DNA of 64,000 nucleotides from SAR86 cluster bacterium. Lineage in GTDB: Bacteria; Pseudomonadota; Gammaproteobacteria; Magnimaribacterales; AG-339-G14. The notes beneath the pieces were generated by a model. It did not search any database. It had not been told where the DNA came from and saw only the letters and a list, made by a program, of their open reading frames with translations. The position numbers were made by a program, and so were the translations under genes. The stretch lies in NCBI GenBank assembly GCA_023703675.1, contig CP097974.1:1072656-1136655 (forward strand), given 5' to 3'. Of this stretch, positions 1 through 20,479 are shown in pieces; position 1 is the first letter of the stretch; each line of letters starts with the position of its first letter.

Positions 1-182
1 AGCTCTTTAATTCTGTTTCTAAAAAAGCCTGGGACGAATGGATTACCCTTCAAACTACACTAATAAATGAAAAACAATTAGACCTTTCAAAAAAAGAGGC
101 GAGAGATTACCTTAATATTCAATTGGAATTATTTCTTGATAATAGCGATCATGACACCGCCGAAGGGTTCAAAGAAATATAA
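1..182 (+). CDS. yggX: YggX-like Fe(2+)-trafficking / oxidative damage protection protein, 3' fragment (5' end outside window)
   Basis: Frame 3 is open from the window edge to TAA at 180-182. The translation LFNSVSKKAWDEWITLQTTLINEKQLDLSKKEARDYLNIQLELFLDN resembles my recollection of E. coli YggX ([22 protein letters not shown]). It falls below the 60-aa cutoff of the ORF track. Confidence 0.6.
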   Translation, partial: LFNSVSKKAWDEWITLQTTLINEKQLDLSKKEARDYLNIQLELFLDNSDHDTAEGFKEI

Positions 183-198
183 AATCTAGACAACTCTC

Positions 199-2625: not shown

Positions 2626-2626
2626 T

Positions 2627-4621
2627 TTATCCATTTAATAAAAAGGTAATTTGTTTGCTTGTAAGTTTAATTGACAAGGCTCGCATACAACTCTCCGATT
2701 CAAATAGATTTCTTGGGCCAATTAAAGGAAAAATATTTTCATGTCGATTGATAACATAAGCTAACGATAATTCAATTGCCGTGCATCCTAATTCATCAGC
2801 TAAATGAAAACACCTCTCTCTTCGATCTAAATTTGACCGACTATGCCAAACCCTTAATTCTTCATCCAAAGTTGGGTTAGCTCCATGGGAACCTTTTGGG
2901 AATGATTGTTGTTGTACAAAAAATCCACGAGCTTGACTGGACCATGGAAACAAATAAATATTATTCTTAATTACGTAATCTAAAAATTCTTCATCACACC
3001 TCATACAACCAGGCCAAACGGGCTGATTCATTTCTGCCAAACTAAAGTTGTTACTTAATACTTTAAATCCTTCTTTATCATTAGCTTCGGCATATTCATT
3101 TGCCTCACTAAACCTATTAAGACTCCAATTTGAAGCACCCAAGATTGAAATGAATCCAGCTTTTTTTAATTCATTTAATTTATCAATAAATTCGCCTACA
3201 GGAACTTCAGGGTTATCTCTATGCAAACAATAAATATCGAATTTTTTTAAGTTAAGTCTCTTTAAAGATTCTTTTATTTGAGGCTCTATAAAACTTGGCT
3301 CACACTGTGGAGTATGTGCGCCCTTTCCTAGAATAATCACCTCGTCTTGAATATTTTTTTTTCTTATCCAATTGCCTAGGTATTTATCTGAAAGACCATT
3401 GTTATAGATGTAAGCGGTATCAAAAATTCTTCCACCCTGTTGATAGAAATGTTCAAACATGCAGTAGGCATGTAAATCAGAGATTTGATTGTCACAACCA
3501 AAGACTACTTTCGGAGTTGATTTTCCTAGTATTTCAGTTGTATCTTTTTCTAAGTTAGAATCTAAATGAAAATAATGATCAATTATTGGAGAATTTTTGA
3601 TTTCGTTGCTTGGGTAGATTACTCCTAGCTTGGAATACCATTTTTCTAAAGAAAGAATGTTTCCTAAAGTATCCTTGTGGGACATCAAAGATGATTCAAA
3701 AATATTTTGAGCTATGCAATTTGCCGCCTCATCAATTTCTCTAGTAAACAATCCTACTTCATCATTTATCTGAACGATTTCCTCTTTTCCTTGATTAATA
3801 AATTTAACCGAAGAAATGCCGTCGTTAAATTGTCCGCAATGCCAAGGATCAGAAATTTCTAATCTCAAGTTTTCTGCTTCAACAATCAAATTGTTTTCAT
3901 AGTTCTCATTAATAGCCGTCTTGATTTCTGCAGAAATATTTTCTGAAAATTCAATCGTCGCTGTTGATTTAGCGTCTACACCTGTTTCATCTAACTCCCC
4001 TTCTACAGTTATTTTAGAAGGCTCTGCAAAAGGTAAATCAGTTAGTTTTCCGCCAATTAGTCTTGCCATAGATAAGGGATAGCAGCCTACATCTAGAATT
4101 GCACCTCCTGCTAACTTTGGATTTCTTAATCTATGCTCTTTTGATACATCAGCACTAAAGCCAAATGAACTCTTTAAAGAAACTCTTTTATTGAGAAAAT
4201 ACTTTTCAATGTACTCTAAAATCTTAAAAGTCTGAGGGTGACACCTATACATAAATGCCTCCATAAGAAAAACTTTTCTTTTTTGGGCTTCATTAATTAA
4301 TATCATTGATTCAGAGGAATTTATCGTTAAAGGTTTTTCACACAACACATTAAGATTGCTTCTTATGCAATCCAAAGAATATTTAAAATGAGAAACGTGA
4401 GGAGTAGCTACATAAACCGCTTCAATGCCGCTATTCAAAAACTTATCTAGTTTGTTGAAAGAATTTATTCCATGTTTTTGTGCAAAATTCTTTACTTTGG
4501 TTTCATTTCTTCCGAATACCGCTTGAAGTTCTGAAGTTTTAGAATGTTTGATCGAATGAGAAAAAGCATTGGCGATTCCCCCATTTCCAATTACTCCCCA
4601 TTTTAATTTTTTCTTAGGCAA
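2627..4621 (-). CDS. Fusion protein: N-terminal Gfo/Idh/MocA NAD(P)-oxidoreductase plus C-terminal aldo/keto reductase
   Basis: Single 664-aa ORF. The N-terminus has KWGVIGNGGIANAF (Rossmann) and CEKPLT (Gfo/Idh/MocA signature). The C-terminal half has AKR tetrad contexts FDTAYIYNNG (D,Y), LGKGAH (K), CLHRD (H) and ILGASNWSLNRF. Confidence 0.8.
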   Translation of the reverse strand: MPKKKLKWGVIGNGGIANAFSHSIKHSKTSELQAVFGRNETKVKNFAQKHGINSFNKLDKFLNSGIEAVYVATPHVSHFKYSLDCIRSNLNVLCEKPLTINSSESMILINEAQKRKVFLMEAFMYRCHPQTFKILEYIEKYFLNKRVSLKSSFGFSADVSKEHRLRNPKLAGGAILDVGCYPLSMARLIGGKLTDLPFAEPSKITVEGELDETGVDAKSTATIEFSENISAEIKTAINENYENNLIVEAENLRLEISDPWHCGQFNDGISSVKFINQGKEEIVQINDEVGLFTREIDEAANCIAQNIFESSLMSHKDTLGNILSLEKWYSKLGVIYPSNEIKNSPIIDHYFHLDSNLEKDTTEILGKSTPKVVFGCDNQISDLHAYCMFEHFYQQGGRIFDTAYIYNNGLSDKYLGNWIRKKNIQDEVIILGKGAHTPQCEPSFIEPQIKESLKRLNLKKFDIYCLHRDNPEVPVGEFIDKLNELKKAGFISILGASNWSLNRFSEANEYAEANDKEGFKVLSNNFSLAEMNQPVWPGCMRCDEEFLDYVIKNNIYLFPWSSQARGFFVQQQSFPKGSHGANPTLDEELRVWHSRSNLDRRERCFHLADELGCTAIELSLAYVINRHENIFPLIGPRNLFESESCMRALSIKLTSKQITFLLNG

Positions 4622-4703
4622 TAAAAATCTCCCCTTTGCTAAACATATATTCTAAATTGATTGCGCATTAAAGACGATTCTTCTAAGATATTTTCTTTCC
4701 CAA

Positions 4704-4779
4704 GCCCAGATAGCTCAGTTGGTAGAGCAAAGGACTGAAAATCCTTGTGTCGGTGGTTCGATTCCACCTCTGGGCACCA
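4704..4779 (+). tRNA. tRNA-Phe (anticodon GAA), CCA encoded
   Basis: Cloverleaf read by eye. Acceptor gcccaga/tctgggc, D-arm gctc-agttggta-gagc, anticodon arm aagga-cuGAAaa-tcctt, variable gtgtc, T-arm ggtgg-ttcgatt-ccacc, discriminator a, cca. Confidence 0.95.
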
Positions 4780-4818
4780 ACGAGATAACATTTTTAAAAC
4801 CAACTCAATAATACTAAA

Positions 4819-4835
4819 ATACCCCCAATGGGTAT
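4819..4835. promoter_or_regulatory. Candidate CsoR/RcnR-family operator: GC-tract inverted repeat ATACCC-ccaat-GGGTAT overlapping the start codon of the first islet gene
   Basis: Perfect 6-5-6 inverted repeat. The ATG at 4828-4830 lies inside it. TAAAAT (4815-4820) is a possible -10 abutting the left arm. The operon's last gene encodes a CsoR-family repressor. Confidence 0.45.
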
Positions 4836-5427
4836 AAGAATTATTTGTCTTTTGTCTGTCATGTCGTTTGGACTTGATGCTAGACCTATATCTTACACAG
4901 GTGGTTCAACCATAATGGCGTTTTCAGATAACATAAAAAATTCTATCTACTACCATTATTCGCCATCCTATAAATACTCAATTGGGATTGAAGTTATAAG
5001 AAATAAATATTTTAAAGATAATTATTCATATGTTAGATATACATACTTGATAAATAGAAAGAATACTGAAAACTCTCAAAGAAATTTGTATTTTCAATCT
5101 GGTGTTAGTTCAAAAGGTTTTGATGAATTTTTTTATGGTATACATGGAGATTGGGAAACAAGAAGATTATTTGTTGGTTTTGGAATAAAGGAAACTGAAA
5201 GAAAAATTCAAGACTATTTAGAACAATACTATCAAATAGGAGTTGCGCCCTATCTTGGTGATTATGGTGACTTGCACACATGGATAATGATTAAGGCAAA
5301 AGATAATTCTCTTGAAAATAAGTGGTCAACTTACCCTGTATTAAAATTTTTTAAAGGAAATGTTCTTATGGAATTTGGTTATAGCAAAAAAACTAAATGG
5401 GATATTCATCTAATGTATAGATTTTGA
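4828..5427 (+). CDS. Putative small outer-membrane beta-barrel protein (function unknown, metal islet)
   Basis: 199 aa. N-terminal signal-like MGIRIICLLSVMSFGLDA. Tyr/Gly-rich amphipathic strand-like segments. C-terminus ...HLMYRF ends in an aromatic residue, as OM barrels typically do. No family recognised. Confidence 0.4.
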   Translation: MGIRIICLLSVMSFGLDARPISYTGGSTIMAFSDNIKNSIYYHYSPSYKYSIGIEVIRNKYFKDNYSYVRYTYLINRKNTENSQRNLYFQSGVSSKGFDEFFYGIHGDWETRRLFVGFGIKETERKIQDYLEQYYQIGVAPYLGDYGDLHTWIMIKAKDNSLENKWSTYPVLKFFKGNVLMEFGYSKKTKWDIHLMYRF

Positions 5428-5435
5428 GAGGAAAA

Positions 5436-5837
5436 ATGAAAAATATATTATTAATTCTTATTTTTACTTCAATGGCATGGGGAGAAACCCCTCATGACGG
5501 CATGCATCATACTCATGAAGGACATGTTCATGAAGAATTTGTAGATGGTAAGAAATTAGAAGTTGATCCTGAGAGATTTGATAAATTCGTTATGGATCTT
5601 GAAGATACCCAAATTGCAATCGTGAATGTTCAAGGTATGGTGTGTGATTTTTGTGCTAGAGGTATTGAAAAAACATTTAAAAAAGACACCAATGTAAAAA
5701 AAGTAGACGTTGATCTGAGCAAAGGAAAAGTTTTAATCGCATACAATGTTGCTCATGAAATAATCTTTGATGATATCAAGGAAAAAATTCTAATAAACGG
5801 ACAAAATGCAATTGATATGCAGGTTATTAATCTTTAA
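5436..5837 (+). CDS. Periplasmic heavy-metal-associated (HMA) domain protein with His-rich N-terminus (MerP/CopZ-like)
   Basis: Signal peptide MKNILLILIFTSMAWG, then the His-rich ETPHDGMHHTHEGHVHEE, then the HMA fold motif VNVQGMVCDFCARGIEKTF (GMxCxxC). The track start at 5424 is a TTG. I prefer the ATG at 5436, which is preceded by gagagg. Confidence 0.75.
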   Translation: MKNILLILIFTSMAWGETPHDGMHHTHEGHVHEEFVDGKKLEVDPERFDKFVMDLEDTQIAIVNVQGMVCDFCARGIEKTFKKDTNVKKVDVDLSKGKVLIAYNVAHEIIFDDIKEKILINGQNAIDMQVINL

Positions 5838-5842
5838 AAATT

Positions 5843-6208
5843 ATGCAAGATAAATCAGCAAATTTTTTATCCTTGTTTGCCTCGTCATCAACTTTAATAT
5901 GTTGTGCACTTCCTTCATTATTTATTGCAGTTGGTGCAGGTGCTTCTTTTGCAAGTTTAATAACAGTCTTTCCATTTTTAATTGTCTTATCTCAATATAA
6001 ATTATCTATAACAATATTTGCTTCAGTGACCATCATATTTGCTGGATATGTGAATTATAAAACTTATTATATGCCTTGCCCCACAGATCCTGAGTTAGGC
6101 AAGTTATGCATGCAAACTAGAAAACAATCAAGATATGTTTATTACATTTCAGTTGTATTGTTTATTTTTGCTACAATATTTACTTATTTAGTTCCTAAAT
6201 TCGTATGA
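5843..6208 (+). CDS. MerT/MerC-like metal transport membrane protein (vicinal Cys pair in TM1)
   Basis: 121 aa with about 3-4 TM segments. TM1 carries STLICCALPSLF (CC..P, as in MerT/MerC/MerF importers). A second Cys pair lies in a loop (MPCPTDPELGKLC). Overlaps the next gene by ATGA. Confidence 0.5.
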   Translation: MQDKSANFLSLFASSSTLICCALPSLFIAVGAGASFASLITVFPFLIVLSQYKLSITIFASVTIIFAGYVNYKTYYMPCPTDPELGKLCMQTRKQSRYVYYISVVLFIFATIFTYLVPKFV

Positions 6209-6465
6209 AAAATCCATGCCATAAAGAAGAAATTCCTAGTCTTAACAGAATTGAGGGACAAGTTCGTGGAATTGCTAACATGATTGATGAAGAAAAGTAT
6301 TGCATTGATATACTCAATCAAATCAAGGCAGTTAGAAATGCTCTTACAAGTATTGAAGGAAAAATATTAAAAAGACATATGAAAGAATGTGTTAAGGAAG
6401 CATTAAATGATGAGAAGGGTTTTGACAATAAGGTTGAGGAAATATTAAAAACCCTTAAAAGATAG
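6205..6465 (+). CDS. csoR: CsoR/RcnR/FrmR-family metal-sensing transcriptional repressor (x-C-H-C fingerprint)
   Basis: 86 aa. Contains RIEGQVRGIANMI and YCIDILNQIKAVRNAL (Cys33) plus KRHMKEC (His58, Cys62, spacing HxxxC), which is the Cu(I)-CsoR-type ligand set. An extra N-terminal Cys5-His6 is present. Confidence 0.8.
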   Translation: MKNPCHKEEIPSLNRIEGQVRGIANMIDEEKYCIDILNQIKAVRNALTSIEGKILKRHMKECVKEALNDEKGFDNKVEEILKTLKR

Positions 6466-6483
6466 ATTAAATTACTGGTTTCA

Positions 6484-6549
6484 TGTGTGCGCTCTTTGTA
6501 TCAATGCTGTGAAGGTTTTTATCATGTTCGTGCACACAGGTGTGCACAC
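6484..6549. repeat. GC-rich motif cluster: TGTGTGCGC (inverted, 6484-6492) and two direct GTGCACACA units (6530-6538, 6541-6549; 11-nt period)
   Basis: Read directly from the sequence. The units stand out against AT-rich flanks. The inverted unit could pair with either direct unit (9 bp including one G-U). Confidence 0.4.
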
Positions 6550-6590
6550 AAATGGTCTGAAAGGTAATAATTTAAAGGGATTATGACTTA

Positions 6591-6645
6591 CGAACAAAGA
6601 ACTGAAAATCCTTGTGTCGGTGGTTCGATTCCTAGCAGGGACATC
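6591..6645 (+). pseudogene. tRNA-Phe fragment (anticodon arm to T-loop), non-functional
   Basis: 6600-6631 is a 32/32 exact copy of tRNA positions 4734-4765, and 39/41 when extended to 6591-6631. Downstream, tagcagggacatca replaces acctctgggcacca, which breaks the T-stem and acceptor stem. No matching 5' half lies upstream. Confidence 0.8.
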
Positions 6646-6690
6646 ACAATTTTCTAAAACTAAAAAAATAGAATCTTTTTTAAGACTTCA

Positions 6691-8040
6691 TTATTTTATA
6701 ACATTCAAAGAATTAGAAAACTTTTGTATGTTATTTACTTTAGTTGGCCTTCCAATACATATGTAATCAAATTCTTTCTTAGACAGAAGATTTGGATCGT
6801 AGATATTCCTTCCATCAAAAATAACTGCATTTTTTAAATAAGTTTTTAACTCTTCCAAGTCTATGTTAAAAAATTCTTTCCATTCTGTAGCGATAATCAA
6901 TGCATTTGATTCTTTAGCTGCATCGAAAGGATTATCATTAAAAGATAAATTTTTATGCTTTATAGTTTCTCTTAAATTATCAAGAGCCTTAGGGTCATAG
7001 GCTTTAACAAGCGCTCCTTTGTTTAGAAGATTTTTAATCAATTTAATTGCAGGAGCGAAACGAATATCGTCTGTATTAGGTTTGAAGGATACACCCCATA
7101 CAGAAAGAGTAAGGCCAGATAAATCATCAGATTTGAAATATTCTGTAATCTTTTTAGTAAAAATGTCTACCTGGAAATCATTAATCTCAATTACAGATTT
7201 TAATAGTTTCAAATCTAGATTTGCGTCATTAGCATTATCAATTATCGCTCTGATATCTTTAGGAAAACATGAACCGCCAAATCCCAATCCAGGATATAGG
7301 TATTCATAACCTATCCTTTTATCAAGTCCTATACCCATTCTTACTTTCTCAATATCAGCACCCTTTATGTCGGCATAATTTGAAAGCTCATTCATAAAAC
7401 TTATTTTAGTAGCCAAAAAAGCATTTGAAGCATATTTAGTCAACTCTGCCGAAGGTGTGTCCATAAAAATTATAGATTTATTCTCCCTTATGAAAGGAGA
7501 AAAAATAGTTAGAAAAAAATCTTCTGAGATATCAGAATTTTTACCAATGACTATTCTGTCAGGTTTTAAGAAATCTTTTACTGCAGAACCTTCTCTTAAA
7601 AATTCTGGACACATTGAAATATTGATATTCTTTGAGGAATCGATCATTGTTGATAATTCTTCACATGTGCCTGGAGGAACAGTAGATTTAATAATAAAAA
7701 AAGCATCTTTTGTATTTTCAGAAATAGAAAAAATTGATTTGTAGAGAGCTAGTAAGTTTGCCTCACCCGAACCTCTGGGTGGTGTGCCGACACAAATAAA
7801 AAATATATTTGAAAAATCGGAAACTTCCTTCAACTTATCTGAAAAACTTAATCGATTATTTCCTAAATTTTCTTTTAGCAAAGATTCAAGCTGAGGCTCA
7901 TAAATATTAGTTTTACCGTTTTTAAGAAGATCAATCTTATCCTTATCTATGTCATAACATTTAACTTCATGTCCTGAGTGGGCAAAACATGCTGCAGTTA
8001 CCAAGCCAACATATCCTGCACCAATAACATTAATATTCAT
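6691..8040 (-). CDS. ugd: UDP-glucose 6-dehydrogenase
   Basis: MNINVIGAGYVGLV (Rossmann) and the catalytic context GFGGSCFPKD. The track start (8118) adds 26 implausible residues. The ATG at 8040 overlaps the upstream stop as ATGA. Confidence 0.9.
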   Translation of the reverse strand: MNINVIGAGYVGLVTAACFAHSGHEVKCYDIDKDKIDLLKNGKTNIYEPQLESLLKENLGNNRLSFSDKLKEVSDFSNIFFICVGTPPRGSGEANLLALYKSIFSISENTKDAFFIIKSTVPPGTCEELSTMIDSSKNINISMCPEFLREGSAVKDFLKPDRIVIGKNSDISEDFFLTIFSPFIRENKSIIFMDTPSAELTKYASNAFLATKISFMNELSNYADIKGADIEKVRMGIGLDKRIGYEYLYPGLGFGGSCFPKDIRAIIDNANDANLDLKLLKSVIEINDFQVDIFTKKITEYFKSDDLSGLTLSVWGVSFKPNTDDIRFAPAIKLIKNLLNKGALVKAYDPKALDNLRETIKHKNLSFNDNPFDAAKESNALIIATEWKEFFNIDLEELKTYLKNAVIFDGRNIYDPNLLSKKEFDYICIGRPTKVNNIQKFSNSLNVIK

Positions 8041-9023
8041 GAATGTGCCGTTGTTACCGAAGAAATAAAATTGCTTGCAACTTCGTCCCAAGAATATTTT
8101 TTTGAATATGCAATACACGATTTAGGATCAACTTTTTGTGCTTGCTTTATTGCTTGGTATAAATCTTTATTTAAATAGCCATTTACGCCATTCTTAACAA
8201 CATCAATAGGTCCGGTTACTGGATATCCTGCCACTGGAGTTCCACAGGCATTTGCTTCTATCATCACTATTCCAAAGGTATCAGTCCGAGAAGGGAAAAC
8301 CTTAACACATGCGTTTGAGTAAATTTCTGCAAGCTCTCTGCCAAATTTATAGCCAAGAAATTCTACATCTGGATATTTTTTTTTGAGACTTTTCAAACTA
8401 GGCCCATCACCTACAACGACTTTCTTTTTGTCCAGTTCTAAACTTAAGAAAGACTCTAAATTTTTTTCTTTAGATACTCTGCCAACATATAGATAGTAAC
8501 TATTATTTCTATCACTTGGAGTGGGGGAAAAAATGTTTTCATCAATGCCCCTTGACCATAAAGCTAATTTCTTAATTCCTATCTCTTCCAGTTCCTTTTT
8601 ATGAGATGGAGTATTTACAAAGGTCACACAAGCTGCATTGTGAAACCATCTTTCAAATCTATTTGTAAATTGAACTGGAATACCCAGCATTTTTTTTAGA
8701 TATAAGGGAAAGTTTGTGTGGTAAGAAGATGAAAATTTTAATTTTTCAACCAAACACACTTTTCTTGCATAAAGCCCAAGCGGGCCCTCAGTTGCAATAT
8801 GAATTAAATCTGGACGAAAATCGTTTATTATTTTTTTTATTTTAAAAACATTCAGTGAAAGTTTTATTTCCTTATAAAAAGGTATAGGAACAGAAACAAA
8901 ACTATTTGGCTCAATAATTTTTACATCATTATTTATTGATAGTTTCTTTACTAAATTTTCTAATGTAGTTACTACGCCATTAACTTGAGGTTTCCAAGCA
9001 TCCGTGACCAAAAGAATTTTCAT
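8037..9023 (-). CDS. GT4-type (GT-B) glycosyltransferase, Agt-like candidate glucosyl/glucuronosyl-diacylglycerol synthase
   Basis: 328 aa. Contains MKILLVTDAWKPQVNGVV and the C-terminal EX7E-like region FPSRTDTFGIVMIEANACGTPV. ATGA overlaps with both neighbours. The specific substrate is inferred from context only. Confidence 0.6.
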   Translation of the reverse strand: MKILLVTDAWKPQVNGVVTTLENLVKKLSINNDVKIIEPNSFVSVPIPFYKEIKLSLNVFKIKKIINDFRPDLIHIATEGPLGLYARKVCLVEKLKFSSSYHTNFPLYLKKMLGIPVQFTNRFERWFHNAACVTFVNTPSHKKELEEIGIKKLALWSRGIDENIFSPTPSDRNNSYYLYVGRVSKEKNLESFLSLELDKKKVVVGDGPSLKSLKKKYPDVEFLGYKFGRELAEIYSNACVKVFPSRTDTFGIVMIEANACGTPVAGYPVTGPIDVVKNGVNGYLNKDLYQAIKQAQKVDPKSCIAYSKKYSWDEVASNFISSVTTAHS

Positions 9024-9835
9024 GCAACCTTATCTTCTGTATGATTTTGATTGTTTGTATATTTAGAATAATCAATTATGTGAAAACGGCCCTCATAATC
9101 TTCTACCAATGCTGTACAAGACTCAACCCAGTCGCCACAGTTTAAATAATGTATTTCATCTATCATTTCATTCGCAACTGAATGAATATGTCCGCAAATT
9201 ACACCATCAAATCCTTCTTTTTTACATACAAAAGCTAAAGTACTCTCAAAATCGCTTATAAAATTTACTGCTGATTTAACTTTGTGTTTTACGAATGCTG
9301 AGAAGGACCAGTATCCAAGATTGAAATTTTTTCTGAAAAAATTTACTACTCTATTTGTTGCCATCAAGAGTTCATAAGCCCAGCTTCCTAATTTAGAAAT
9401 CCATTTACTGTATTTCGTAACTAAATCAAATTGATCGCCATGGATGACAAGGTATTTTTTTCCACTTATCGAGGTATAAATAGCTCGATCAGTAACTTTT
9501 ACATTTCCAAGTAGGATAGGCGAATATGATCTAAGAAACTCATCGTGATTTCCAGTGATGTAATTTACATTTGTGTCATCTTTGGCATAAGACAAAAAAC
9601 GTCTTAAAACATTGGTGTGCGCTTGGGGCCAAAAAAGAGATTGTTCCATTCGCCAGCCGTCAACGATGTCTCCAACAAGATATAGTTCTTCGCAGGAATT
9701 ATTGTAGAGAAAATCAAGTAGTCTTTCTGCTTGACAACCCTTGGTGCCCAAATGAATGTCTGACAACCAAATAGACTTGTATTTTTTTTGATTCACCAAT
9801 GAAACTATTAGAAACTTATGTAAGTTCTGATTCAA
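9020..9835 (-). CDS. Calcineurin-like metallophosphoesterase of the LpxH/PlcP group; candidate phospholipase C PlcP
   Basis: Metallophosphoesterase motifs in order: SDIHLG, GDIVDGW, GNHDEF, HGDQFD, GHIH. First gene of a coupled three-gene operon with a glycosyltransferase and ugd. Confidence 0.6.
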   Translation of the reverse strand: MNQNLHKFLIVSLVNQKKYKSIWLSDIHLGTKGCQAERLLDFLYNNSCEELYLVGDIVDGWRMEQSLFWPQAHTNVLRRFLSYAKDDTNVNYITGNHDEFLRSYSPILLGNVKVTDRAIYTSISGKKYLVIHGDQFDLVTKYSKWISKLGSWAYELLMATNRVVNFFRKNFNLGYWSFSAFVKHKVKSAVNFISDFESTLAFVCKKEGFDGVICGHIHSVANEMIDEIHYLNCGDWVESCTALVEDYEGRFHIIDYSKYTNNQNHTEDKVA

Positions 9836-9879
9836 TGCTCATAAATCTAATCAGTATGATTTTTTCTTAAAATTTTCAA

Positions 9880-9892
9880 TTCTGTAACAGAA
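9880..9892. promoter_or_regulatory. Perfect 6-1-6 palindrome TTCTGT-A-ACAGAA about 45 nt upstream of the plcP-like start; candidate operator
   Basis: Read directly from the sequence. Each half contains CTGT(A/T)AC, which weakly resembles a PhoB half-site (CTGTCAT/CTGTCAC). No convincing second direct half-site at 11-nt spacing. Confidence 0.25.
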
Positions 9893-10226
9893 CCTTTATA
9901 AAGTTCACGCTTTCTTTAAGTCATCGCAAAAAGTACCTATAGCTTTATTAAAATTTGAAGAGTTATGTAAGAAAATGAAACAATGAAAATATTCGTTGGT
10001 TACTACTAGGAGCAATTTATACAAAATAAGACTTTTAGAACCTTTAAAAATACATACTATTTCTACAACGACTTAACTAAAGAAAAGGATAGAGATTTTG
10101 AAAATAATATAATGATCTCAATGGAACCTATGGTTTAAAACTCTGCATGGCATACAAAACCAGCAAACTTAAAAGACTTAACAACTGGTAAAGCACAAAT
10201 ACTTGAAAGATCAATAAATTTGTTCC

Positions 10227-10244
10227 ATTCCACCTCTGGGCACC
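10227..10244 (+). repeat. 18-nt exact direct repeat of the tRNA-Phe 3' end (T-loop to discriminator); att-like site
   Basis: attccacctctgggcacc is identical to 4761-4778, in the same orientation. It lies 46 nt upstream of pip. Confidence 0.8.
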
Positions 10245-10289
10245 TTTTAAAAAATATCTTTCAAAAAAAACCTGAAGTATGATGTCTTA

Positions 10290-11252
10290 ATGAATTTCTT
10301 CAGAAAAAAACAAATCCTTTACCCAGCAATAGAGCCATTTGACTCAGGTTTTATCAAAGACGGAATTCATGAAATTTATTATGAACAATGTGGGAATCCT
10401 AAAGGAAAACCCGCCGTTTTTTTTCATGGAGGTCCTGGTGGTGGCGCTGGTAAATTTTCAAGAAGATTTTTTAATCCAAAAAAATACAGAATTGTCCTTT
10501 TTGATCAAAGGGGTTGTGGAAAAAGTAAACCTCATGCTTGTTTAGAAAATAATACAACTTGGCATTTGGTTCAAGACATAGAAACGATAAGAAAGAAGTT
10601 AGAAATTGAAAAGTGGTTAGTATTTGGTGGATCTTGGGGAAGTACCCTTGCACTTGCTTATGCACAAAAACACCCAGAGTGTGTCACAGAACTTGTGCTG
10701 AGAGGAATCTTCATGCTGAGAGAAAAAGAATTGAGATGGTTTTATCAATATGGGGCAAGTGAAATCTATCCAGAAGCTTGGCAAGGATTTATCAATGAAA
10801 TTCCAGAAGAAGAGAGATTCGATCTAATTGATGCTTATAGAAAAATTTTCAACGGTGAGGACAAGGAGAAAAAATTATCTGCTGCTAAGGCCTGGTCAAA
10901 GTGGGAAGCCTCAACGAGCTTTATAAATCATAATCCAAATGCAGTTAAAGATTCGATCAATGCTGAATTTGCGCTAGCTTTTGCTCAAATAGAAAATCAT
11001 TACTTTATTAACAATGGTTTCTTAGATCACGAAAATCAGCTCCTCGATGGCGTTGACACTATAAGACACATTCCCGCAGTTATTGTTCAAGGAAGATATG
11101 ACCTAGTCTGTCCAGCAACCACTGCTTACGAATTACATTCGCGTTGGCCCGAATCTAAATTAAAAATTGCTCCATTTTCGGGACACTCTGCTTTTGAAAA
11201 AGAAATTTCTAAATTATTAATTGAAACAACTGACGAGTTTTCAAGAAATTAG
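10290..11252 (+). CDS. pip: Proline iminopeptidase (prolyl aminopeptidase)
   Basis: HGGPGGG and GGSWGSTLALAYAQKHPE (nucleophile elbow). The 320-aa alpha/beta hydrolase length is typical of Pip. Confidence 0.9.
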   Translation: MNFFRKKQILYPAIEPFDSGFIKDGIHEIYYEQCGNPKGKPAVFFHGGPGGGAGKFSRRFFNPKKYRIVLFDQRGCGKSKPHACLENNTTWHLVQDIETIRKKLEIEKWLVFGGSWGSTLALAYAQKHPECVTELVLRGIFMLREKELRWFYQYGASEIYPEAWQGFINEIPEEERFDLIDAYRKIFNGEDKEKKLSAAKAWSKWEASTSFINHNPNAVKDSINAEFALAFAQIENHYFINNGFLDHENQLLDGVDTIRHIPAVIVQGRYDLVCPATTAYELHSRWPESKLKIAPFSGHSAFEKEISKLLIETTDEFSRN

Positions 11253-11308
11253 TTGATTGACAGACCAAATACAAACTCAATATTATTATGTTGAGAAAAG
11301 ATTTTTAA

Positions 11309-12535
11309 ATGTCGGAAAATTTATTATTAAAGGGAATAAAAGTAATTGATGCCGCTAGCTTTATTGCTGGACCTGCTTCCACAACCATACTTTCTGATTT
11401 TGGTGCCGAGGTTATTAAAATCGAGCCTCCTAAAGTAGGAGATAGTTTAAGACATCTTATCCTGCGAACTAGAAGAGTTAACCCACAGGGAGACAAAGAT
11501 TACTGTTGGCATTTAACTTCTAGGAATAAAAAAAGTCTCGCATTGGATCTAAACACCTCTAAAGGCCAAGAAATCTTAAAAGAATTAATAAAAGAAGCAG
11601 ATGTATTTGTCACCAACATGCCAAAAAAAACTAGAGAAAAGTTGAAAATACGTGCCGAAGATTTATTACCTATAAACGAAAGGCTAGTTTATGGATCACT
11701 AACTGGTTATGGTGAAAGCGGTGAAGACTCCCATCGAACTGCTTTTGATGTTTTGGCTTGGTGGGCAAGAAGTGGTTTGATGGATATTGTGAGACCATCT
11801 GATAATTCTTCCCCCGGATTTGTTCCGATTGGTATAGGCGATCAGCCTACTGGTGTTGCTTTGTTTGCAAGCATAATGACAGCTTTATACAGAAGAGAGA
11901 AAACTGGAAAAGGAGGAGAAGTCTACACTTCATTGATGGCAAATGGAGCTTGGTCAAATGGTAGCTATATTCAAGCAGGATTGTTCAATGCAGAATTTCC
12001 AGACCGACAAGAAGAATCTCCTCTTCATCCTTTCGGAGGAAGATACAAAACTAAAGACGGTAGGTTTTTACTCTTGGCTATAATCGACGCAGCTAAAGAA
12101 TGGCCTAAATTTCTAAATGCAATGGATTTAAATTATTTAAACGAGAATGAAAAATTTTCTAGTTTTAAAAAATTAAATTCTAATTTTCATGAGTTGTACA
12201 AAATTTTAGAAGATGTATTTATACGATATAGCCTAACTGAAGTTATAGATAAATTGAGAGATTCTGGTGTTACTTTTGGATTCATGAACAAATCAAATGA
12301 TCTTGCAAGCGATCAACAATTTCTTGATAGTGGGGTATTGATTAAGTATGAAAACGAAGCATTCGAAGAAGATTCTCTTACTGTAAATAGTCCAGTTTTT
12401 CTAAAAAACGAGCCTAAAAAAACTCCGGCAAAAGGCCCAGATCTTGGCGAACATACAAGAGAAATTTTAATTAGCCTTGGTAAAAGTGAAGCAGACATTA
12501 GTGCGTTAAAAGAATCTGGAATAATAGATTTTTAA
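11309..12535 (+). CDS. Family III CoA-transferase (CaiB/BaiF family)
   Basis: N-terminal LKGIKVIDAASFIAGPASTTILSDFGAEVIKIEPP is the hallmark of the family. 408 aa. Confidence 0.85.
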   Translation: MSENLLLKGIKVIDAASFIAGPASTTILSDFGAEVIKIEPPKVGDSLRHLILRTRRVNPQGDKDYCWHLTSRNKKSLALDLNTSKGQEILKELIKEADVFVTNMPKKTREKLKIRAEDLLPINERLVYGSLTGYGESGEDSHRTAFDVLAWWARSGLMDIVRPSDNSSPGFVPIGIGDQPTGVALFASIMTALYRREKTGKGGEVYTSLMANGAWSNGSYIQAGLFNAEFPDRQEESPLHPFGGRYKTKDGRFLLLAIIDAAKEWPKFLNAMDLNYLNENEKFSSFKKLNSNFHELYKILEDVFIRYSLTEVIDKLRDSGVTFGFMNKSNDLASDQQFLDSGVLIKYENEAFEEDSLTVNSPVFLKNEPKKTPAKGPDLGEHTREILISLGKSEADISALKESGIIDF

Positions 12536-12538
12536 AAA

Positions 12539-13132
12539 ATGAAATCTTTAGAATATTTTTTTGACTGTAGTAGCCCCTGGACATATCTTTCATTCAGAGG
12601 AATTTTAGATCTATCAAAAAGAAAAGATTTTGAAATCATTTGGAAGCCAATTTTAGTTGGTGGCATTTTCAATTCTATTAATCCTAGTGTTTATGAAAGC
12701 AGAAAAAATCCAGTAAAAGAGAAATTAGAATATTCTCAAAAAGATCTTTTAGATTGGGCTAACTATAGAGGCATACAAATCAATTGGCCTAAAATCTTCC
12801 CTGTAAATAGTGTTAAGGCAATGAGAGGTTGCTTTTACTTTATCGATCACGGAAATTTAGAACCTTATGTTGAGCAAATCTTTAAAGCTTACTGGACCAA
12901 TGGAGAAAATATTTCTGAAGATGAATTTCTAGAGAGACTCGTGGAGAAAATGGAAGTCAATCCGAAAGAATTTATCGAGTTCATAAATAATTCTGAAGTA
13001 AAACAGAGACTAGTTGATAATACCCAAAATCTAATTGATCGAGGTGGCTTTGGCTCACCAACCTTTTTTCTTGATGTAAATGATATGTATTTTGGCAATG
13101 ATCGGCTTCAACTTATAGAAAAAATAATTTAA
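12539..13132 (+). CDS. 2-hydroxychromene-2-carboxylate isomerase / DsbA-like (kappa-GST-like) thioredoxin-fold protein
   Basis: FFDCSSPWTYLSF at the N-terminus and GGFGSPTFFLD...YFGNDRL at the C-terminus are typical of HCCA isomerase family proteins. Confidence 0.75.
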   Translation: MKSLEYFFDCSSPWTYLSFRGILDLSKRKDFEIIWKPILVGGIFNSINPSVYESRKNPVKEKLEYSQKDLLDWANYRGIQINWPKIFPVNSVKAMRGCFYFIDHGNLEPYVEQIFKAYWTNGENISEDEFLERLVEKMEVNPKEFIEFINNSEVKQRLVDNTQNLIDRGGFGSPTFFLDVNDMYFGNDRLQLIEKII

Positions 13133-13137
13133 TTTGA

Positions 13138-13872
13138 TTATTCCTCTTTTTTAGCTTTTGCCATTTCTGAAATACTCTTTGCGTCTTGATTGAACATAGT
13201 TTTTAGACTTTCTTTGGATATACCCTTTCCAAAATTTCTAACCTCCTTACCGACTTCGATGCCCTTTCTCACTGCTGGTCTAGACTTGATGGCATCAAAC
13301 CACCTTCTAACATTTGCAAAAGAATCCAAATCTACTTCATATCGCTTGTAAGCTGTAACCCAAGGGAATGAAGCCATATCTGCAATTGAATACTCTCCAG
13401 CAAGATATTCTCTTTCAGCCAAAACTCGATCCATTACGCCGAGCAGACGATCGTATTCGTCTTTGTATCTTTTTTCAGAGTAAGAATGATCACCAGGAAA
13501 ATTTGGCGCGTAATTTACAAAATGACTCACCTGTCCTGCCATTGGGCCTAAACCGCCAACTTGCCAAAATAACCATTCAAGAACTCTTTCTCTTTCAGGC
13601 GAAGTTTGAGGAAAAAACTTCCCAGCCTTTTCTGCTATGTACATCAAAATAGCGCCAGACTCAAACACACTTATCGGCTCACCATTAACAATATTTTCAT
13701 GGTCAACAATTACTGGCATTCTATTGTTGGGGCTTATCTTTAGAAAATCGGGTTTGAATTGATCGCCGCTGCCCAAATTTACAAACACTACTTTGTAATC
13801 CATTCCACACTCTTCAAGCATTATCGAAATCTTCCAACCATTAGGAGTTGGCGCGTAATATAAATCGATCAT
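13138..13872 (-). CDS. yfcG: Glutathione S-transferase, nu-class (YfcG/YghU-like)
   Basis: MIDLYYAPTPNGWKISIMLEE...QFKPDFLKISPNNRMPVIVD...ESGAILMYIAEK closely parallels E. coli YfcG as I recall it. Confidence 0.8.
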   Translation of the reverse strand: MIDLYYAPTPNGWKISIMLEECGMDYKVVFVNLGSGDQFKPDFLKISPNNRMPVIVDHENIVNGEPISVFESGAILMYIAEKAGKFFPQTSPERERVLEWLFWQVGGLGPMAGQVSHFVNYAPNFPGDHSYSEKRYKDEYDRLLGVMDRVLAEREYLAGEYSIADMASFPWVTAYKRYEVDLDSFANVRRWFDAIKSRPAVRKGIEVGKEVRNFGKGISKESLKTMFNQDAKSISEMAKAKKEE

Positions 13873-13873
13873 T

Positions 13874-15073: not shown

Positions 15074-15078
15074 ACAGA

Positions 15079-15091
15079 AATGATAATTATT
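15079..15091. promoter_or_regulatory. Fur-box-like sequence AATGATAATTATT in the Rieske/TBDR divergent region
   Basis: 12/13 match to the core AATGATAATCATT of the 19-bp Fur consensus, and about 13/19 over the full consensus. The AT-rich background makes a chance match plausible. Confidence 0.25.
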
Positions 15092-15178
15092 TTTTTATTT
15101 TTTTCCAGTATTAAAATTTTTATTTATTAGTTGATTAGCTGAGTAATTACATTATCATTTAGTTTTTTCGGGGGGAAA

Positions 15179-17662: not shown

Positions 17663-17668
17663 GAGCTT

Positions 17669-19878: not shown

Positions 19879-19951
19879 GACTTTTTTAATTTTTAGAATT
19901 TTTCCCCTTTGAAATGCTATTCTATCAAATAAGTTAAATGGATTTACTTTT

Positions 19952-20437: not shown

Positions 20438-20440
20438 AAA

Positions 20441-20468: not shown

Positions 20469-20479
20469 GATGAATAAAC

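What the first reader, a model, noticed from the sequence alone, without database searches (positions are those of the whole stretch)
6691..9835. Translationally coupled plcP-like / agt-like / ugd operon: a self-contained glucuronosyl-diacylglycerol lipid-renovation cassette on a tRNA islet
Three minus-strand genes are linked by ATGA overlaps at 9020-9023 and 8037-8040. The first is an LpxH/PlcP-group metallophosphoesterase (DxH, GD, GNHDE, H, GHxH motifs). The second is a GT4 glycosyltransferase. The third is UDP-glucose 6-dehydrogenase. PlcP (a phospholipase C that releases diacylglycerol) is paired with the glycosyltransferase Agt, which uses UDP-glucose and UDP-glucuronate. This is the established phosphate-starvation lipid-remodelling route in Sinorhizobium/Agrobacterium, SAR11 and marine roseobacters. 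Hard-wiring ugd (the UDP-glucuronate supply) into the same operon would make the cassette metabolically autonomous. Its location between tRNA-Phe-derived repeats suggests it is horizontally portable.
Basis: partly seen in the sequence, partly recalled or inferred. Interest (0 to 1): 0.65.

Follow-up and report, generated by a model that had tools for sequence, protein, structure and literature searches.

The report
Mobile phosphate-starvation glycolipid cassette in SAR86
A 3.6-kb, three-gene cassette in a SAR86 marine bacterium probably replaces membrane phospholipids with a phosphorus-free acidic glycolipid, makes its own sugar donor, and has been inserted into a tRNA remnant that is uninterrupted in a near-identical sister strain.

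Summary
Three minus-strand genes, plcP-like, GT4 and ugd, are joined by ATGA overlaps at 9020-9023 and 8037-8040.

- **Organism:** SAR86 (Gammaproteobacteria).
- **Phosphoesterase:** it scores far below both LpxH equivalog cutoffs. Its homologues sit directly upstream of the GT homologue in 54 of 80 genomes.
- **Glycosyltransferase:** it carries the Agt/GTcp clade signatures (FPSxTDTFG, GRVxxEKN, the His/Asp dyad, conserved Arg and Trp).
- **Third gene:** a UDP-glucose 6-dehydrogenase.
- **plcP-GT-ugd triad:** it recurs in other diverged marine lineages. I found no paper describing it.
- **Insertion:** a sister-strain contig, 96-97.5% identical in the flanks, lacks the cassette. The 3.6-kb insert sits inside the T-loop of a pseudo-tRNA-Phe remnant, carries a tRNA-Arg(CCT) 3' end, and duplicates a 10-bp core.
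- **Other contexts:** the same cassette (87-97% nt) lies in four more SAR86 contexts, including between two tRNA-Arg genes and directly upstream of phoB/phoR-like genes, with ppx and ppk2 beyond.
- **Mobility genes:** no integrase is present.

Lipid function and phosphate regulation are inferred, not shown. Verdict: a new variant of a known system, of moderate interest.

The parts
4704..4779 (+). Functional tRNA-Phe(GAA), the anchor of the integration hotspot.
   Evidence: ARAGORN. Rfam tRNA, 75.2 bits. In 10 SAR86 metagenome loci this tRNA lies 10-120 nt from pip with nothing between them.
4780..6591 (+). Older islet ('island 1'). It holds an unknown 199-aa protein, an HMA-domain protein, a MerT-like membrane protein and a CsoR/RcnR-type metal-sensing repressor. 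It is not part of the lipid cassette.
   Evidence: Pfam. The islet is present without the cassette in sister strain L087, and all or part of it in L104, L106 and L128.
6592..6632 (+). Pseudo-tRNA-Phe remnant (anticodon arm to T-loop). It was the displaced end of island 1 and became the target of the cassette insertion. It is the left junction, with the core GTTCGATTCC at 6623-6632.
   Evidence: 95% identical to tRNA-Phe 4725-4765. In L087 the remnant continues uninterrupted into ACCTCTGGGCACC.
6633..6690 (+). Cassette end. The 3' acceptor strand of a tRNA-Arg(CCT), TAGCAGGGACATCA (6633-6646), is followed by the spacer that follows that tRNA in other SAR86 genomes.
   Evidence: Alignment with the tRNA-Arg genes of L008 and L012 and their downstream spacer. 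blastn homology with L008 and L012 starts at 6622.
6691..8040 (-). ugd, a UDP-glucose 6-dehydrogenase of 449 aa, inferred to supply UDP-glucuronate.
   Evidence: Three UDPG_MGDP_dh domains. TIGR03026 scores 426.7 bits against a cutoff of 189.8. The best solved relatives are UDP-glucose dehydrogenases, with 2y0e at 384 bits. The catalytic-Cys motif GGSCFPKD is present.
8037..9023 (-). Agt/GTcp-type GT4 diacylglycerol glycosyltransferase of 328 aa.
   Evidence: Pfam GT4. Motifs GRVSKEKN and FPSRTDTFG, plus His102, Arg158, Asp248-x7-Glu256 and Trp312. These are conserved in 85-89 of 89 homologues and match the GTcp features in PMC8231724.
9020..9796 (-). plcP-like Mn-metallophosphoesterase, inferred to be a phospholipase C that releases diacylglycerol. 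The likely start is GTG 9796 or TTG 9799; the longest ORF reaches 9835.
   Evidence: Pfam Metallophos. Below both LpxH cutoffs. Homologues lie directly upstream of the GT in 54 of 80 genomes. Start inferred from stop codons in orthologues.
9862..9919 (-). Promoter-proximal block conserved in all seven cassette copies examined. It contains a Pho-box-like direct repeat, CTGTTAC-AGAA-TTGAAAA, at 9890-9873.
   Evidence: Alignment of six loci, and also L169. The motif occurs once in the 64-kb window against 0.065 expected, and once upstream of plcP in the unrelated lineage L001. No canonical sigma-70 promoter was found there.
9920..10020 (-). Upstream non-coding part of the cassette, shared with L008 and L012.
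   Evidence: blastn homology extends to 10020 in L008 and 10005 in L012.
10021..10221 (.). Orphan segment of 200 nt inside the insertion. Its origin is unknown and it has no counterpart in any fetched locus.
   Evidence: blastn against all loci gave only 21-nt chance matches. It is absent from L087.
10222..10244 (+). Right junction. The duplicated core GTTCCATTCC (10222-10231) is followed by the tRNA-Phe 3' end ACCTCTGGGCACC.
   Evidence: Repeat family D2. Homology with L087 resumes exactly at 10222.
10290..11252 (+). pip-like alpha/beta hydrolase, the conserved flank of the hotspot.
   Evidence: Pfam Abhydrolase_1. It was used to recover 80 syntenic SAR86 metagenome loci.

Best explanation
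The region is an accessory lipid-renovation operon of a SAR86 bacterium. Three steps are inferred from the characterised families; none was measured here.

1. Under phosphate starvation the PlcP-type enzyme cleaves the phosphorylated head group from membrane phospholipids and leaves diacylglycerol.
2. The Agt/GTcp-type GT4 enzyme glycosylates that diacylglycerol.
3. The co-translated Ugd oxidises UDP-glucose to UDP-glucuronate. The characterised GTcp uses the two donors almost equally well. Raising the UDP-GlcA pool should therefore shift the product from neutral glucosyl-DAG towards anionic glucuronosyl-DAG, the functional substitute for phosphatidylglycerol.

Expression is probably PhoB-dependent, through a conserved Pho-box-like repeat that stands where a -35 element would be.

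The comparative data show directly that the three genes, their promoter and a tRNA-Arg 3' end form a discrete 3.4-3.6-kb unit. This unit moves between SAR86 genomes and between tRNA-associated sites. In this window it entered the T-loop of a tRNA-Phe remnant.

The cassette has no recombinase of its own. It must therefore move by a recombinase supplied in trans, or by recombination of excised circles at tRNA homology. Which of these applies is open.
For: **Identity of the parts**
- PlcP-like enzyme.
- GT motifs and residues: set against PMC8231724.
- Ugd.

**Functional linkage**
- plcP lies directly upstream of the GT in 54 of 80 GTDB loci and in all 12 IMG/VR loci.
- plcP-agt is an experimentally validated remodelling pair in SAR11 and Phaeobacter (PMC4796936).
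- GTcp has kcat/Km of 71 for UDP-Glc and 60 for UDP-GlcA.

**Phosphate link**
- In L009-L011 the triad is followed 8 nt later by phoB/phoR-like genes, then ppx and ppk2.
- The related pair in L001 lies near ppx, ppk2 and a response regulator / histidine kinase pair.
- The L007 variant carries a secreted purple-acid-phosphatase-like gene.
- The Pho-box-like motif is unique in the window and recurs upstream of plcP in L001.

**Unit character**
- The triad with its overlaps recurs in diverged lineages L167, L168 and L027.
- dS is similar across the three genes, with dN/dS of 0.08-0.34.

**Mobility**
- The site is uninterrupted in sister strain L087, with exact junctions.
- The left junction is a tRNA-Phe/tRNA-Arg chimera.
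- There are five contexts with only the cassette shared.
- L008 and L012 share the cassette at 91% but their flanks at only 67-74%.
- In L169 the cassette lies between two tRNA-Arg genes.
Against: - No lipid, enzyme activity or transcript was measured.
- I could not retrieve the characterised PlcP sequences (SMc00171, MED193_17359, PB7211_983) or Agt/GTcp sequences (Atu2297, PB7211_960). Membership therefore rests on published motifs, residue positions and synteny, not on a direct alignment.
- The Pho-box-like motif was not found upstream of phoB, ppk2 or the porin in L009. It matches the E. coli consensus well in only one half-site.
- NCBIfam equivalog cutoffs for UDP-glucose 6-dehydrogenase were not reached (TuaD 415 bits against 700).
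- Triad-linked Ugds are not clearly monophyletic in a crude NJ tree. The linkage may have arisen more than once, or the tree may be too weak to tell.
- No integrase lies in the cassette or in the 64-kb window, and none was found among the ORFs sampled from five other tRNA-Phe islets. The movement mechanism is unexplained.
Confidence: 0.75

Rival explanations
1. The cassette serves lipid A or LPS. The phosphoesterase would be LpxH. The GT and Ugd would decorate the LPS core or lipid A with glucuronate, or feed the Ara4N pathway. Phosphate-starved E. coli, for example, adds GlcA to its LPS core.
For: - LpxH models are the best-named NCBIfam hits.
- Many homologues are annotated 'UDP-2,3-diacylglucosamine diphosphatase'.
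- The only solved relative is LpxH 5k8k.
- Ugd is the first enzyme of the Ara4N pathway; this rests on established knowledge and was not tested here.
Against: - LpxH scores are 4-6 times below the equivalog cutoffs.
- The match to 5k8k is 26.5 bits, against 330-600 bits to family members.
- The gene is absent from a 96-97.5% identical sister strain, which an essential sole LpxH could not be.
- The GT carries the Asp-for-Glu dyad and the motifs specific to the diacylglycerol-glycosylating Agt/GTcp clade.
- No other lpx, waa or arn genes lie nearby.
Confidence: 0.05
2. The cassette makes a phosphorus-free anionic surface polymer or another glucuronylated acceptor, not a diacylglycerol glycolipid. 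This would resemble the PhoP-induced teichuronic acid (tua) operon of Bacillus. The phosphoesterase would recycle some other phosphorylated envelope component.
For: - TuaD is the best-scoring UDP-glucose 6-dehydrogenase equivalog model for Ugd (415 bits; the broader NDP-sugar dehydrogenase subfamily model TIGR03026 scores higher).
- TuaD is PHO-regulated in P. putida BIRD-1 although unlinked to plcP (PMC5082522).
- The nearest non-triad Ugds sit in envelope-polysaccharide loci.
Against: - A single GT with no polymerase, flippase or export genes cannot make a polymer.
- The GT has the DAG-contacting residues His, Arg and Trp of GTcp, conserved family-wide.
- The strong plcP-GT synteny across phyla matches the validated DAG route.
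Confidence: 0.08
3. The varying locations reflect ordinary genome rearrangement or mis-assembly in MAGs and SAGs, not horizontal mobility of a discrete cassette.
For: - All comparison sequences are MAGs, SAGs or metagenome contigs.
- No integrase or transposase was found.
Against: - The junctions are base-precise and lie in tRNA T-loops.
- Contexts are reproduced in independent assemblies: L008, L012 and L169 share one, and L009, L010 and L011 share another.
- Cassette identity (91%) greatly exceeds flank identity (67-74%) for L008 versus L012.
- L008 comes from a MAG whose name (LRMED) suggests a long-read assembly.
Confidence: 0.05

Closest known systems
PlcP-Agt lipid-remodelling operon (SAR11 HTCC7211 PB7211_983/PB7211_960 = GTcp; Phaeobacter MED193 PlcP; Agrobacterium Atu2297; Sinorhizobium SMc00171)
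   Same: - The same two enzyme families in the same order, plcP then GT. Translational coupling is also seen in marine gammaproteobacterial relatives.
- The GT has the clade motifs FPSxTDTFG and GRVxxEKN and the His/Asp dyad.
- PlcP had already been noted in SAR86 single-cell genomes (PMC4796936).
   Different: - A dedicated ugd is fused into the operon as a third translationally coupled gene. It was absent from 74 of the 80 genome loci and from the GC-30% marine loci L175-L180. I found no paper describing it.
- The published table lists SAR86C PlcP with no linked lipid gene.
- Here the operon is a discrete cassette that varies between strains and carries a tRNA end.
Tycheposons and tRNA-anchored flexible islands of Prochlorococcus (bioRxiv 10.1101/2020.12.28.424599)
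   Same: - A streamlined marine bacterium.
- Nutrient-stress cargo inserted at tRNA genes, flanked by full and partial tRNA copies.
- Successive insertions that push older ones inward. Here island 1 came first, then the cassette entered its remnant.
   Different: - There is no tyrosine or serine recombinase and no replication module in the cassette or the window, nor among the ORFs sampled from other tRNA-Phe islets.
- The same cargo is found at two different tRNA species, Arg(CCT) and a Phe remnant, joined through the shared T-loop.
LpxH (UDP-2,3-diacylglucosamine diphosphatase)
   Same: The same calcineurin-like metallophosphoesterase subgroup and the same metal-binding motifs. LpxH is the only solved relative.
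   Different: Scores fall far below the equivalog cutoffs. The distribution is accessory, and the gene is linked to a DAG glycosyltransferase rather than to lpx genes.
Pho-regulated UDP-glucuronate supply: Bacillus tuaD in the tua operon, and P. putida BIRD-1 TuaD
   Same: A UDP-glucose dehydrogenase is switched on by phosphate starvation to build a phosphorus-free anionic envelope component (PMC5082522).
   Different: In those systems the product is teichuronic acid or is unknown, and the gene is not linked to plcP or agt. Here it lies within the glycolipid operon.

Membership tests
PlcP (Mn-dependent phospholipase C of lipid remodelling) | Calcineurin-like metallophosphoesterase with the DxH, GD, GNHD/E, H and GHxH motifs. 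| tested here: met
   Translation. Pfam PF00149, E = 2e-11.
PlcP (Mn-dependent phospholipase C of lipid remodelling) | Distinct from bona fide LpxH. | tested here: met
   NF003743 scores 35.6 bits against a cutoff of 134, and TIGR01854 scores 29 against 190. The match to 5k8k is 26.5 bits. The gene is absent from sister strain L087.
PlcP (Mn-dependent phospholipase C of lipid remodelling) | Gene neighbourhood with a non-phosphorus-lipid synthesis gene such as agt or btaAB. | tested here: met
   A 4-nt overlap with an Agt-type GT. The same adjacency occurs in 54 of 80 genome loci and 12 of 12 IMG/VR loci.
PlcP (Mn-dependent phospholipase C of lipid remodelling) | BLASTP E < 1e-40 to a characterised PlcP (the MED193_17359 criterion of PMC4796936). 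| not tested
   The characterised sequences could not be retrieved with the tools. The only indirect figure is 37-51% identity to alphaproteobacterial agt-linked homologues.
PlcP (Mn-dependent phospholipase C of lipid remodelling) | Induction by phosphate starvation through a Pho box. | tested here: inconclusive
   A conserved CTGTTAC-N4-TTGAAAA repeat is unique in the window and recurs in L001. It is not seen at other putative Pho promoters in L009. There are no expression data.
PlcP (Mn-dependent phospholipase C of lipid remodelling) | Hydrolysis of PG or PE to diacylglycerol. | not testable with these tools
   Needs an enzyme assay or lipidomics.
Agt/GTcp clade of GT4 (MGlc-/MGlcA-DAG synthase) | [quoted passage not shown] | tested here: met
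   GRVSKEKN has one substitution (Ala to Ser). FPSRTDTFG is an exact match.
Agt/GTcp clade of GT4 (MGlc-/MGlcA-DAG synthase) | A catalytic dyad of His104 and Asp256, with Asp replacing the usual Glu of the GT4 ExxxxxxxE motif. | tested here: met
   His102 and Asp248-x7-Glu256. His is conserved in 89 of 89 homologues and Asp in 88 of 89. Correspondence to GTcp numbering is by position, not by direct alignment.
Agt/GTcp clade of GT4 (MGlc-/MGlcA-DAG synthase) | DAG-contacting Arg163 and Trp320, strictly conserved. | tested here: met
   Arg158 is conserved in 85 of 89 homologues and Trp312 in 86 of 89.
Agt/GTcp clade of GT4 (MGlc-/MGlcA-DAG synthase) | 46-58% identity among clade members and below 25% to other GT4 enzymes. 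| tested here: inconclusive
   Identity is 43-52% to plcP-linked homologues from many phyla. Solved GT4 structures give only partial, weak matches of at most 45 bits. No direct comparison with GTcp or Atu2297 was made.
Agt/GTcp clade of GT4 (MGlc-/MGlcA-DAG synthase) | [quoted passage not shown] | not testable with these tools
   Needs heterologous expression and LC-MS.
UDP-glucose 6-dehydrogenase | Three-domain UDPG_MGDP_dh architecture and the nucleotide-sugar dehydrogenase family threshold. | tested here: met
   PF03721, PF00984 and PF03720. TIGR03026 scores 426.7 bits against a cutoff of 189.8.
UDP-glucose 6-dehydrogenase | Specificity for UDP-glucose rather than GDP-mannose or UDP-ManNAc. 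| tested here: inconclusive
   The top solved hits are UDP-glucose dehydrogenases at 349-384 bits, against 184 for GDP-mannose DH and 160 for UDP-ManNAcA DH. The GGSCFPKD motif is present. The equivalog cutoffs for TuaD (700) and AglM (670) are not reached, with scores of 415 and 350.
LpxH | Score above the equivalog cutoffs of NF003743 and TIGR01854. | tested here: not met
   35.6 bits against 134, and 29 against 190.
Tycheposon | Integration at a tRNA gene, leaving full and partial tRNA repeats. | tested here: met
Tycheposon | An inward-facing tRNA-associated tyrosine (or large serine) recombinase at one end, with an optional replication module. | tested here: not met
   The cassette holds only plcP, GT and ugd. 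No recombinase domain was found among the window ORFs scanned or in the ORFs sampled from five other tRNA-Phe islets.

The most novel reading that the evidence does not exclude
The plcP-agt-ugd unit may be a minimal, integrase-less cargo cassette. Its only mobility determinant would be a tRNA 3' end. A recombinase supplied in trans would recognise the near-universal T-loop core GGTTCGAnTCC, letting the cassette hop between different tRNA species (Arg-CCT, Phe and possibly others) and between SAR86 species. If so, SAR86 has a cassette-exchange system at tRNA genes, comparable in logic to integron cassettes or to satellites of tycheposons. That system would distribute phosphate-stress traits through the population.
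Probability: 0.25. Interest if true: 0.75.

Novelty: new variant of a known kind. Interest (0 to 1): 0.52.

Why it matters
- **A second major clade.** SAR86 is among the most abundant heterotrophs of the surface ocean. Its response to phosphorus scarcity is poorly known. The only published note I found lists a SAR86 PlcP with no partner gene.
- **A strain-level trait.** The cassette implies that some SAR86 strains can replace phospholipids with glucuronosyl-diacylglycerol, as SAR11 does. Near-identical genomes carry it or lack it, so the capacity is gained and lost strain by strain.
- **A testable design principle.** Building ugd into the operon suggests that the donor pool, not the transferase, sets the neutral-to-anionic glycolipid ratio.
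- **A natural example of transfer.** The base-precise tRNA-Phe/tRNA-Arg junction, next to an uninterrupted allele, shows how streamlined marine genomes exchange adaptive operons without recognisable mobility genes.
- **A practical annotation point.** The family is widely mis-annotated as LpxH.

Tried and rejected
- **Characterised sequences:** a direct comparison with characterised PlcP and Agt/GTcp was not possible. The sequences are not retrievable with these tools. Carini 2015 (PMC4485111) and Semeniuk 2014 (PMC3974981) are not held.
- **Flanking repeats in other contexts:** a repeat search in L007, L008, L009 and L012 found no tRNA-core repeat at the promoter-side end. Only the window and L169 show both ends.
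- **Orphan segment 10021-10221:** blastn against all 170+ loci gave nothing.
- **Rfam:** scanning the window at gathering thresholds found only tRNA-Phe. No riboswitch or sRNA lies in the cassette.
- **Consensus scans:** no sigma-70 promoter upstream of plcP and no intrinsic terminator. This fits an activator-dependent promoter but is uninformative on its own.
- **IMG/VR scan for a phage-borne copy:** it returned only distant plcP-GT pairs (43-47% identity), probably host regions. The SAR86 cassette itself was absent.
- **NJ tree of Ugd:** triad-linked copies do not form one clear clade, so I make no claim of a single origin.
- **Integrase search:** Pfam scans of the window ORFs selected (51 of the 65 ORFs of at least 100 aa) and of ORFs sampled from five other tRNA-Phe islets were negative.
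- **Pho-box motif elsewhere:** it was not found upstream of phoB, ppk2 or the porin in L009.
- **Literature on a plcP-agt-ugd operon:** none found.
- **Unused searches:** I did not run the third homologue search, structure prediction or the representative-library search. They would not have changed the verdict.

Full report
**1. The observation**

The window is AT-rich (about 33% G+C). ORF listing and direct reading confirm three consecutive minus-strand genes.
- The phosphoesterase ends at 9020 and overlaps the next start in ATGA at 9023-9020.
- The glycosyltransferase ends at 8037 and overlaps the ugd start in ATGA at 8040-8037.
- The phosphoesterase translation shows SDIHLG, VGDIVDG, TGNHDEF, IHGD and CGHIHS.
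- Pfam gives Metallophos for gene 1, Glyco_transf_4 plus Glycos_transf_1 for gene 2, and all three UDPG_MGDP_dh domains for gene 3.
- tRNA-Phe(GAA) lies at 4704-4779. Partial copies lie at 6592-6632 and 10222-10244.

Two corrections are needed.
- The 9835 end is only the longest ORF. The 13-codon extension contains stop codons in the orthologous copies L007, L009 and L010. The real start is most likely GTG 9796 or TTG 9799.
- The left repeat is a chimera, described in section 5.

**2. Whose genome it is**

A scan of one genome per GTDB species with the GT returned six SAR86 genomes at 90-98% protein identity, then a sharp drop to 52% or less. The rest of the window has typical SAR86 content: TonB-dependent receptors, sulfatase, GH3, many hydrolases and beta-oxidation enzymes. 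It holds no pho, pst, lpx or recombinase genes.

**3. What the three proteins are**

*Phosphoesterase.*
- NCBIfam's two LpxH equivalog models are the best-named hits. They score 35.6 and 29 bits against cutoffs of 134 and 190.
- The only solved relative is H. influenzae LpxH, at 26.5 bits.
- The protein scores 330-600 bits to thousands of database proteins. Many of these are annotated as LpxH, a known over-annotation of this family.
- In 54 of the 80 genome loci recovered with the GT, a homologue of this phosphoesterase lies directly upstream on the same strand. The same holds in 12 of 12 IMG/VR loci.
- This is the plcP-agt arrangement that Sebastian et al. validated genetically and by heterologous expression (PMC4796936).

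*Glycosyltransferase.* Wei et al. (PMC8231724) define the GTcp/Agt clade by these features:
- the motifs GRVAxEKN and FPSxTDTFG;
- a His104/Asp256 dyad, in which Asp replaces the usual GT4 Glu and cannot be exchanged for it;
- essential, strictly conserved Arg163 and Trp320.

The window protein has GRVSKEKN, FPSRTDTFG, His102, Arg158, Asp248-x7-Glu256 and Trp312. In an alignment of 89 homologues these positions are conserved in 85-89 sequences. Correspondence to GTcp numbering is by position. I could not obtain the GTcp sequence for a direct alignment.

*Dehydrogenase.*
- It passes the nucleotide-sugar dehydrogenase family threshold, at 426.7 bits against 189.8.
- Its best solved relatives are UDP-glucose dehydrogenases (BceC 2y0e, 384 bits). 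GDP-mannose and UDP-ManNAcA dehydrogenases score less than half of that.
- It has the GGSCFPKD catalytic-cysteine motif.

**4. The triad is a recurrent but rare architecture**
- Among the 80 genome loci, ugd follows the GT only in five SAR86 genomes and one other marine gammaproteobacterial MAG, L027.
- The Ugd homologue search shows a tight clade at 86-99% identity, made of the cassette copies. It then drops to 58% (P0137) and 52% (P0139, a cluster of 344 member sequences).
- P0139 lies in a plcP-GT-ugd locus with both 4-nt overlaps (L167). P0137 lies on a short contig (L168) that preserves only a truncated GT overlapping ugd by 4 nt.
- The next relatives, at 50%, are in envelope-polysaccharide loci.
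- A crude NJ tree does not make the triad-linked Ugds clearly monophyletic. The number of recruitments is therefore open.
- All three genes are under purifying selection, with dN/dS of 0.08-0.34. Their dS values are similar, as expected for a unit.
- I found no paper that describes ugd inside a plcP-agt operon. The nearest is P. putida BIRD-1, where an unlinked TuaD is PHO-regulated.
- The published survey lists the SAR86C PlcP with no linked lipid gene.

**5. The cassette is a discrete insertion**

Using the flanking pip gene as a probe, I fetched 80 SAR86 metagenome loci.
- One of them, L087, is a sister strain. It is 97.6% identical over window 1-6490 and 95.7% over 10222-21249. It has oxidoreductase, tRNA-Phe, island 1 and pip, but no cassette.
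- In L087 the far end of island 1 is a displaced tRNA-Phe 3' portion: ...GGTGGTTCGATTCC-ACCTCTGGGCACC.
- In the window this remnant is split in its T-loop. The left junction reads GGTTCGATTCC followed by TAGCAGGGACATCA-CAATTTTCTAAAAC.... The right junction reads ...AAATTT-GTTCCATTCC-ACCTCTGGGCACC.
- The sequence after the left core is the 3' acceptor strand of tRNA-Arg(CCT), plus the spacer that follows that tRNA in SAR86 genomes L008 and L012.
- The insert therefore spans 6633-10221 plus a duplicated 10-bp core. It arrived carrying a tRNA-Arg end and recombined within the 11 nt that the two tRNAs share.
- It entered a pseudo-tRNA, so the functional tRNA-Phe was not damaged.

**6. One cassette, five contexts**

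blastn shows that only window 6622-10020 is shared with the other SAR86 genomes, at 87-97% identity. The flanks are unrelated. The contexts are:
- (a) this tRNA-Phe remnant;
- (b) L008 and L012, where the cassette abuts the 3' end of tRNA-Arg(CCT) next to hisI-ccm, and where the cassette is 91% identical but the flanks only 67-74%;
- (c) L169, with the same hisI-ccm neighbourhood but the cassette lying between two complete, directly repeated tRNA-Arg(CCT) genes (88% identical), with a 41-nt hisI-derived repeat beside the outer copy; this is the structure expected if a circle of cassette, tRNA and a piece of hisI recombined at the resident tRNA;
- (d) L009-L011, with no tRNA nearby, where ugd is followed after 8 nt by a response regulator whose best models are PhoB (244 and 243 bits, just under the cutoffs), then a PhoR/PnpS-like kinase, with ppx and ppk2 beyond;
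- (e) L007, where ugd is reduced to its first ~20 nt and replaced by a convergent secreted purple-acid-phosphatase-like gene next to tRNA-Ile.

None of these contexts contains a recombinase. The tRNA-Phe/pip junction is itself a hotspot.
- Ten loci have nothing between tRNA-Phe and pip.
- About eleven hold 0.9-8 kb of other sequence. ORFs sampled from five of these encode homocysteine S-methyltransferase, PhyH dioxygenase, hydrolases and an FtsX-type permease, again with no integrase.

**7. Regulation**
- A ~58-nt block upstream of plcP is nearly invariant in all seven copies examined. It contains CTGTTAC-AGAA-TTGAAAA, two 7-mers at 11-bp spacing, as in a Pho box.
- The pattern CTGT[ACT]A[ACT]-N4-TTGAAA occurs once in the 64-kb window, against 0.065 expected. 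It also occurs once upstream of plcP in L001, a different lineage (62-64% protein identity, DNA not alignable). That plcP-GT pair lies near ppx, ppk2 and a two-component system.
- No canonical sigma-70 promoter was found.
- The motif was not seen at other candidate Pho promoters. PhoB control is therefore a reasoned inference, not a result.

**8. Mechanism proposed**
- *Shown:* gene identities at family level, operon structure, purifying selection, the insertion junctions, multiple contexts, and proximity to Pho genes in some genomes.
- *Inferred from characterised homologues:* PlcP releases diacylglycerol from PG or PE, and the GT makes MGlc-DAG or MGlcA-DAG.
- *Inferred here:* Ugd is in the operon to raise UDP-GlcA at the moment the transferase is made. 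GTcp's kcat/Km values for UDP-Glc and UDP-GlcA are 71 and 60 min-1 mM-1. Product charge should therefore follow the donor pool. The anionic GADG is the replacement for the anionic PG.
- *Movement:* either a T-loop-specific recombinase acts in trans, or excised circles recombine at tRNA homology. The full-length tRNA duplication in L169 fits the second. The 10-11-nt crossover between two different tRNAs in the window is short for RecA-type recombination and fits the first. I cannot decide between them.

**9. Rivals**
- An LpxH/LPS role is contradicted by the HMM scores, the clade-specific GT features and, above all, the absence of the gene from a near-identical strain.
- A polymer-synthesis role lacks any polymerase or export genes.
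- Mis-assembly is contradicted by base-precise junctions reproduced across independent assemblies.

**10. Verdict**

The biochemistry is that of the known PlcP-Agt system. Two things are new: the built-in ugd, and the demonstration that the whole unit is a small, integrase-less, tRNA-end-carrying cassette that differs between near-identical SAR86 strains and sits at several tRNA and Pho-related sites. It is a new variant of a known kind, of moderate interest.

Noticed in passing
window 4780-6591: A separate, older islet lies between tRNA-Phe and its displaced 3' remnant. It holds an unknown 199-aa protein, an HMA-domain protein, a MerT-like membrane protein and a CsoR/RcnR-type repressor, so it is probably a copper or mercury homeostasis module. 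It is present in sister strain L087, and all or part of it in L104, L106 and L128. It is absent from at least 10 other SAR86 loci.
   Followed up: partly
L088-L166, the junction equivalent to window 4779-10290: The tRNA-Phe/pip junction is an insertion hotspot across SAR86. Ten loci have nothing between tRNA-Phe and pip, and about eleven hold 0.9-8 kb of unrelated sequence. ORFs sampled from five of those encode homocysteine S-methyltransferase, PhyH dioxygenase, alpha/beta hydrolases and an FtsX-type permease. No integrase was found in any sampled ORF.
   Followed up: partly
L169 2603-2716 and 6065-6317: The cassette is bracketed by two complete tRNA-Arg(CCT) genes in direct orientation (88% identical). 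A 41-nt fragment copied from inside hisI lies next to the outer copy. This looks like the footprint of a circular intermediate that carried tRNA-Arg and a piece of hisI.
   Followed up: partly
L007 10988-12807: This is a variant cassette. Only the first ~20 nt of ugd remain, followed by a convergent 520-aa secreted purple-acid-phosphatase-like metallophosphatase and then tRNA-Ile(GAT). It pairs plcP-GT with a different phosphate-stress gene.
   Followed up: partly
L009 12341-16099 (also L010, L011): phoB-like and phoR-like genes start 8 nt after ugd, followed by ppx and ppk2 on the other strand and then a porin. In these genomes the lipid cassette has become part of the core phosphate-regulation locus.
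   Followed up: partly
window 10021-10221: A 200-nt non-coding segment lies inside the insertion. It has no match in any of the 170+ loci fetched. It may be a piece of the donor's flank.
   Followed up: partly
window 6491-6540: The window carries about 50 extra nt relative to sister strain L087, in the spacer after the CsoR-like gene. The segment is rich in GTGTGCACAC-type palindromic repeats.
   Followed up: no
window 2627-4621: A 664-aa protein fuses a GFO/IDH/MocA oxidoreductase (N-terminal) to an aldo/keto reductase (C-terminal). The listed ORF begins with TTG.
   Followed up: no
L175, L176, L178, L180 (IMG/VR contigs, GC about 30%): These marine contigs are catalogued as viral but carry plcP-GT pairs (51% and 44-45% identity to the window proteins) without ugd. 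They are probably host islands of a low-GC marine lineage rather than phage genes.
   Followed up: no
homologues listed: Many members of this PlcP-like family are named 'UDP-2,3-diacylglucosamine diphosphatase / LpxH' by NCBI and JGI, although they score far below the LpxH equivalog thresholds. This is a systematic annotation error.
   Followed up: partly
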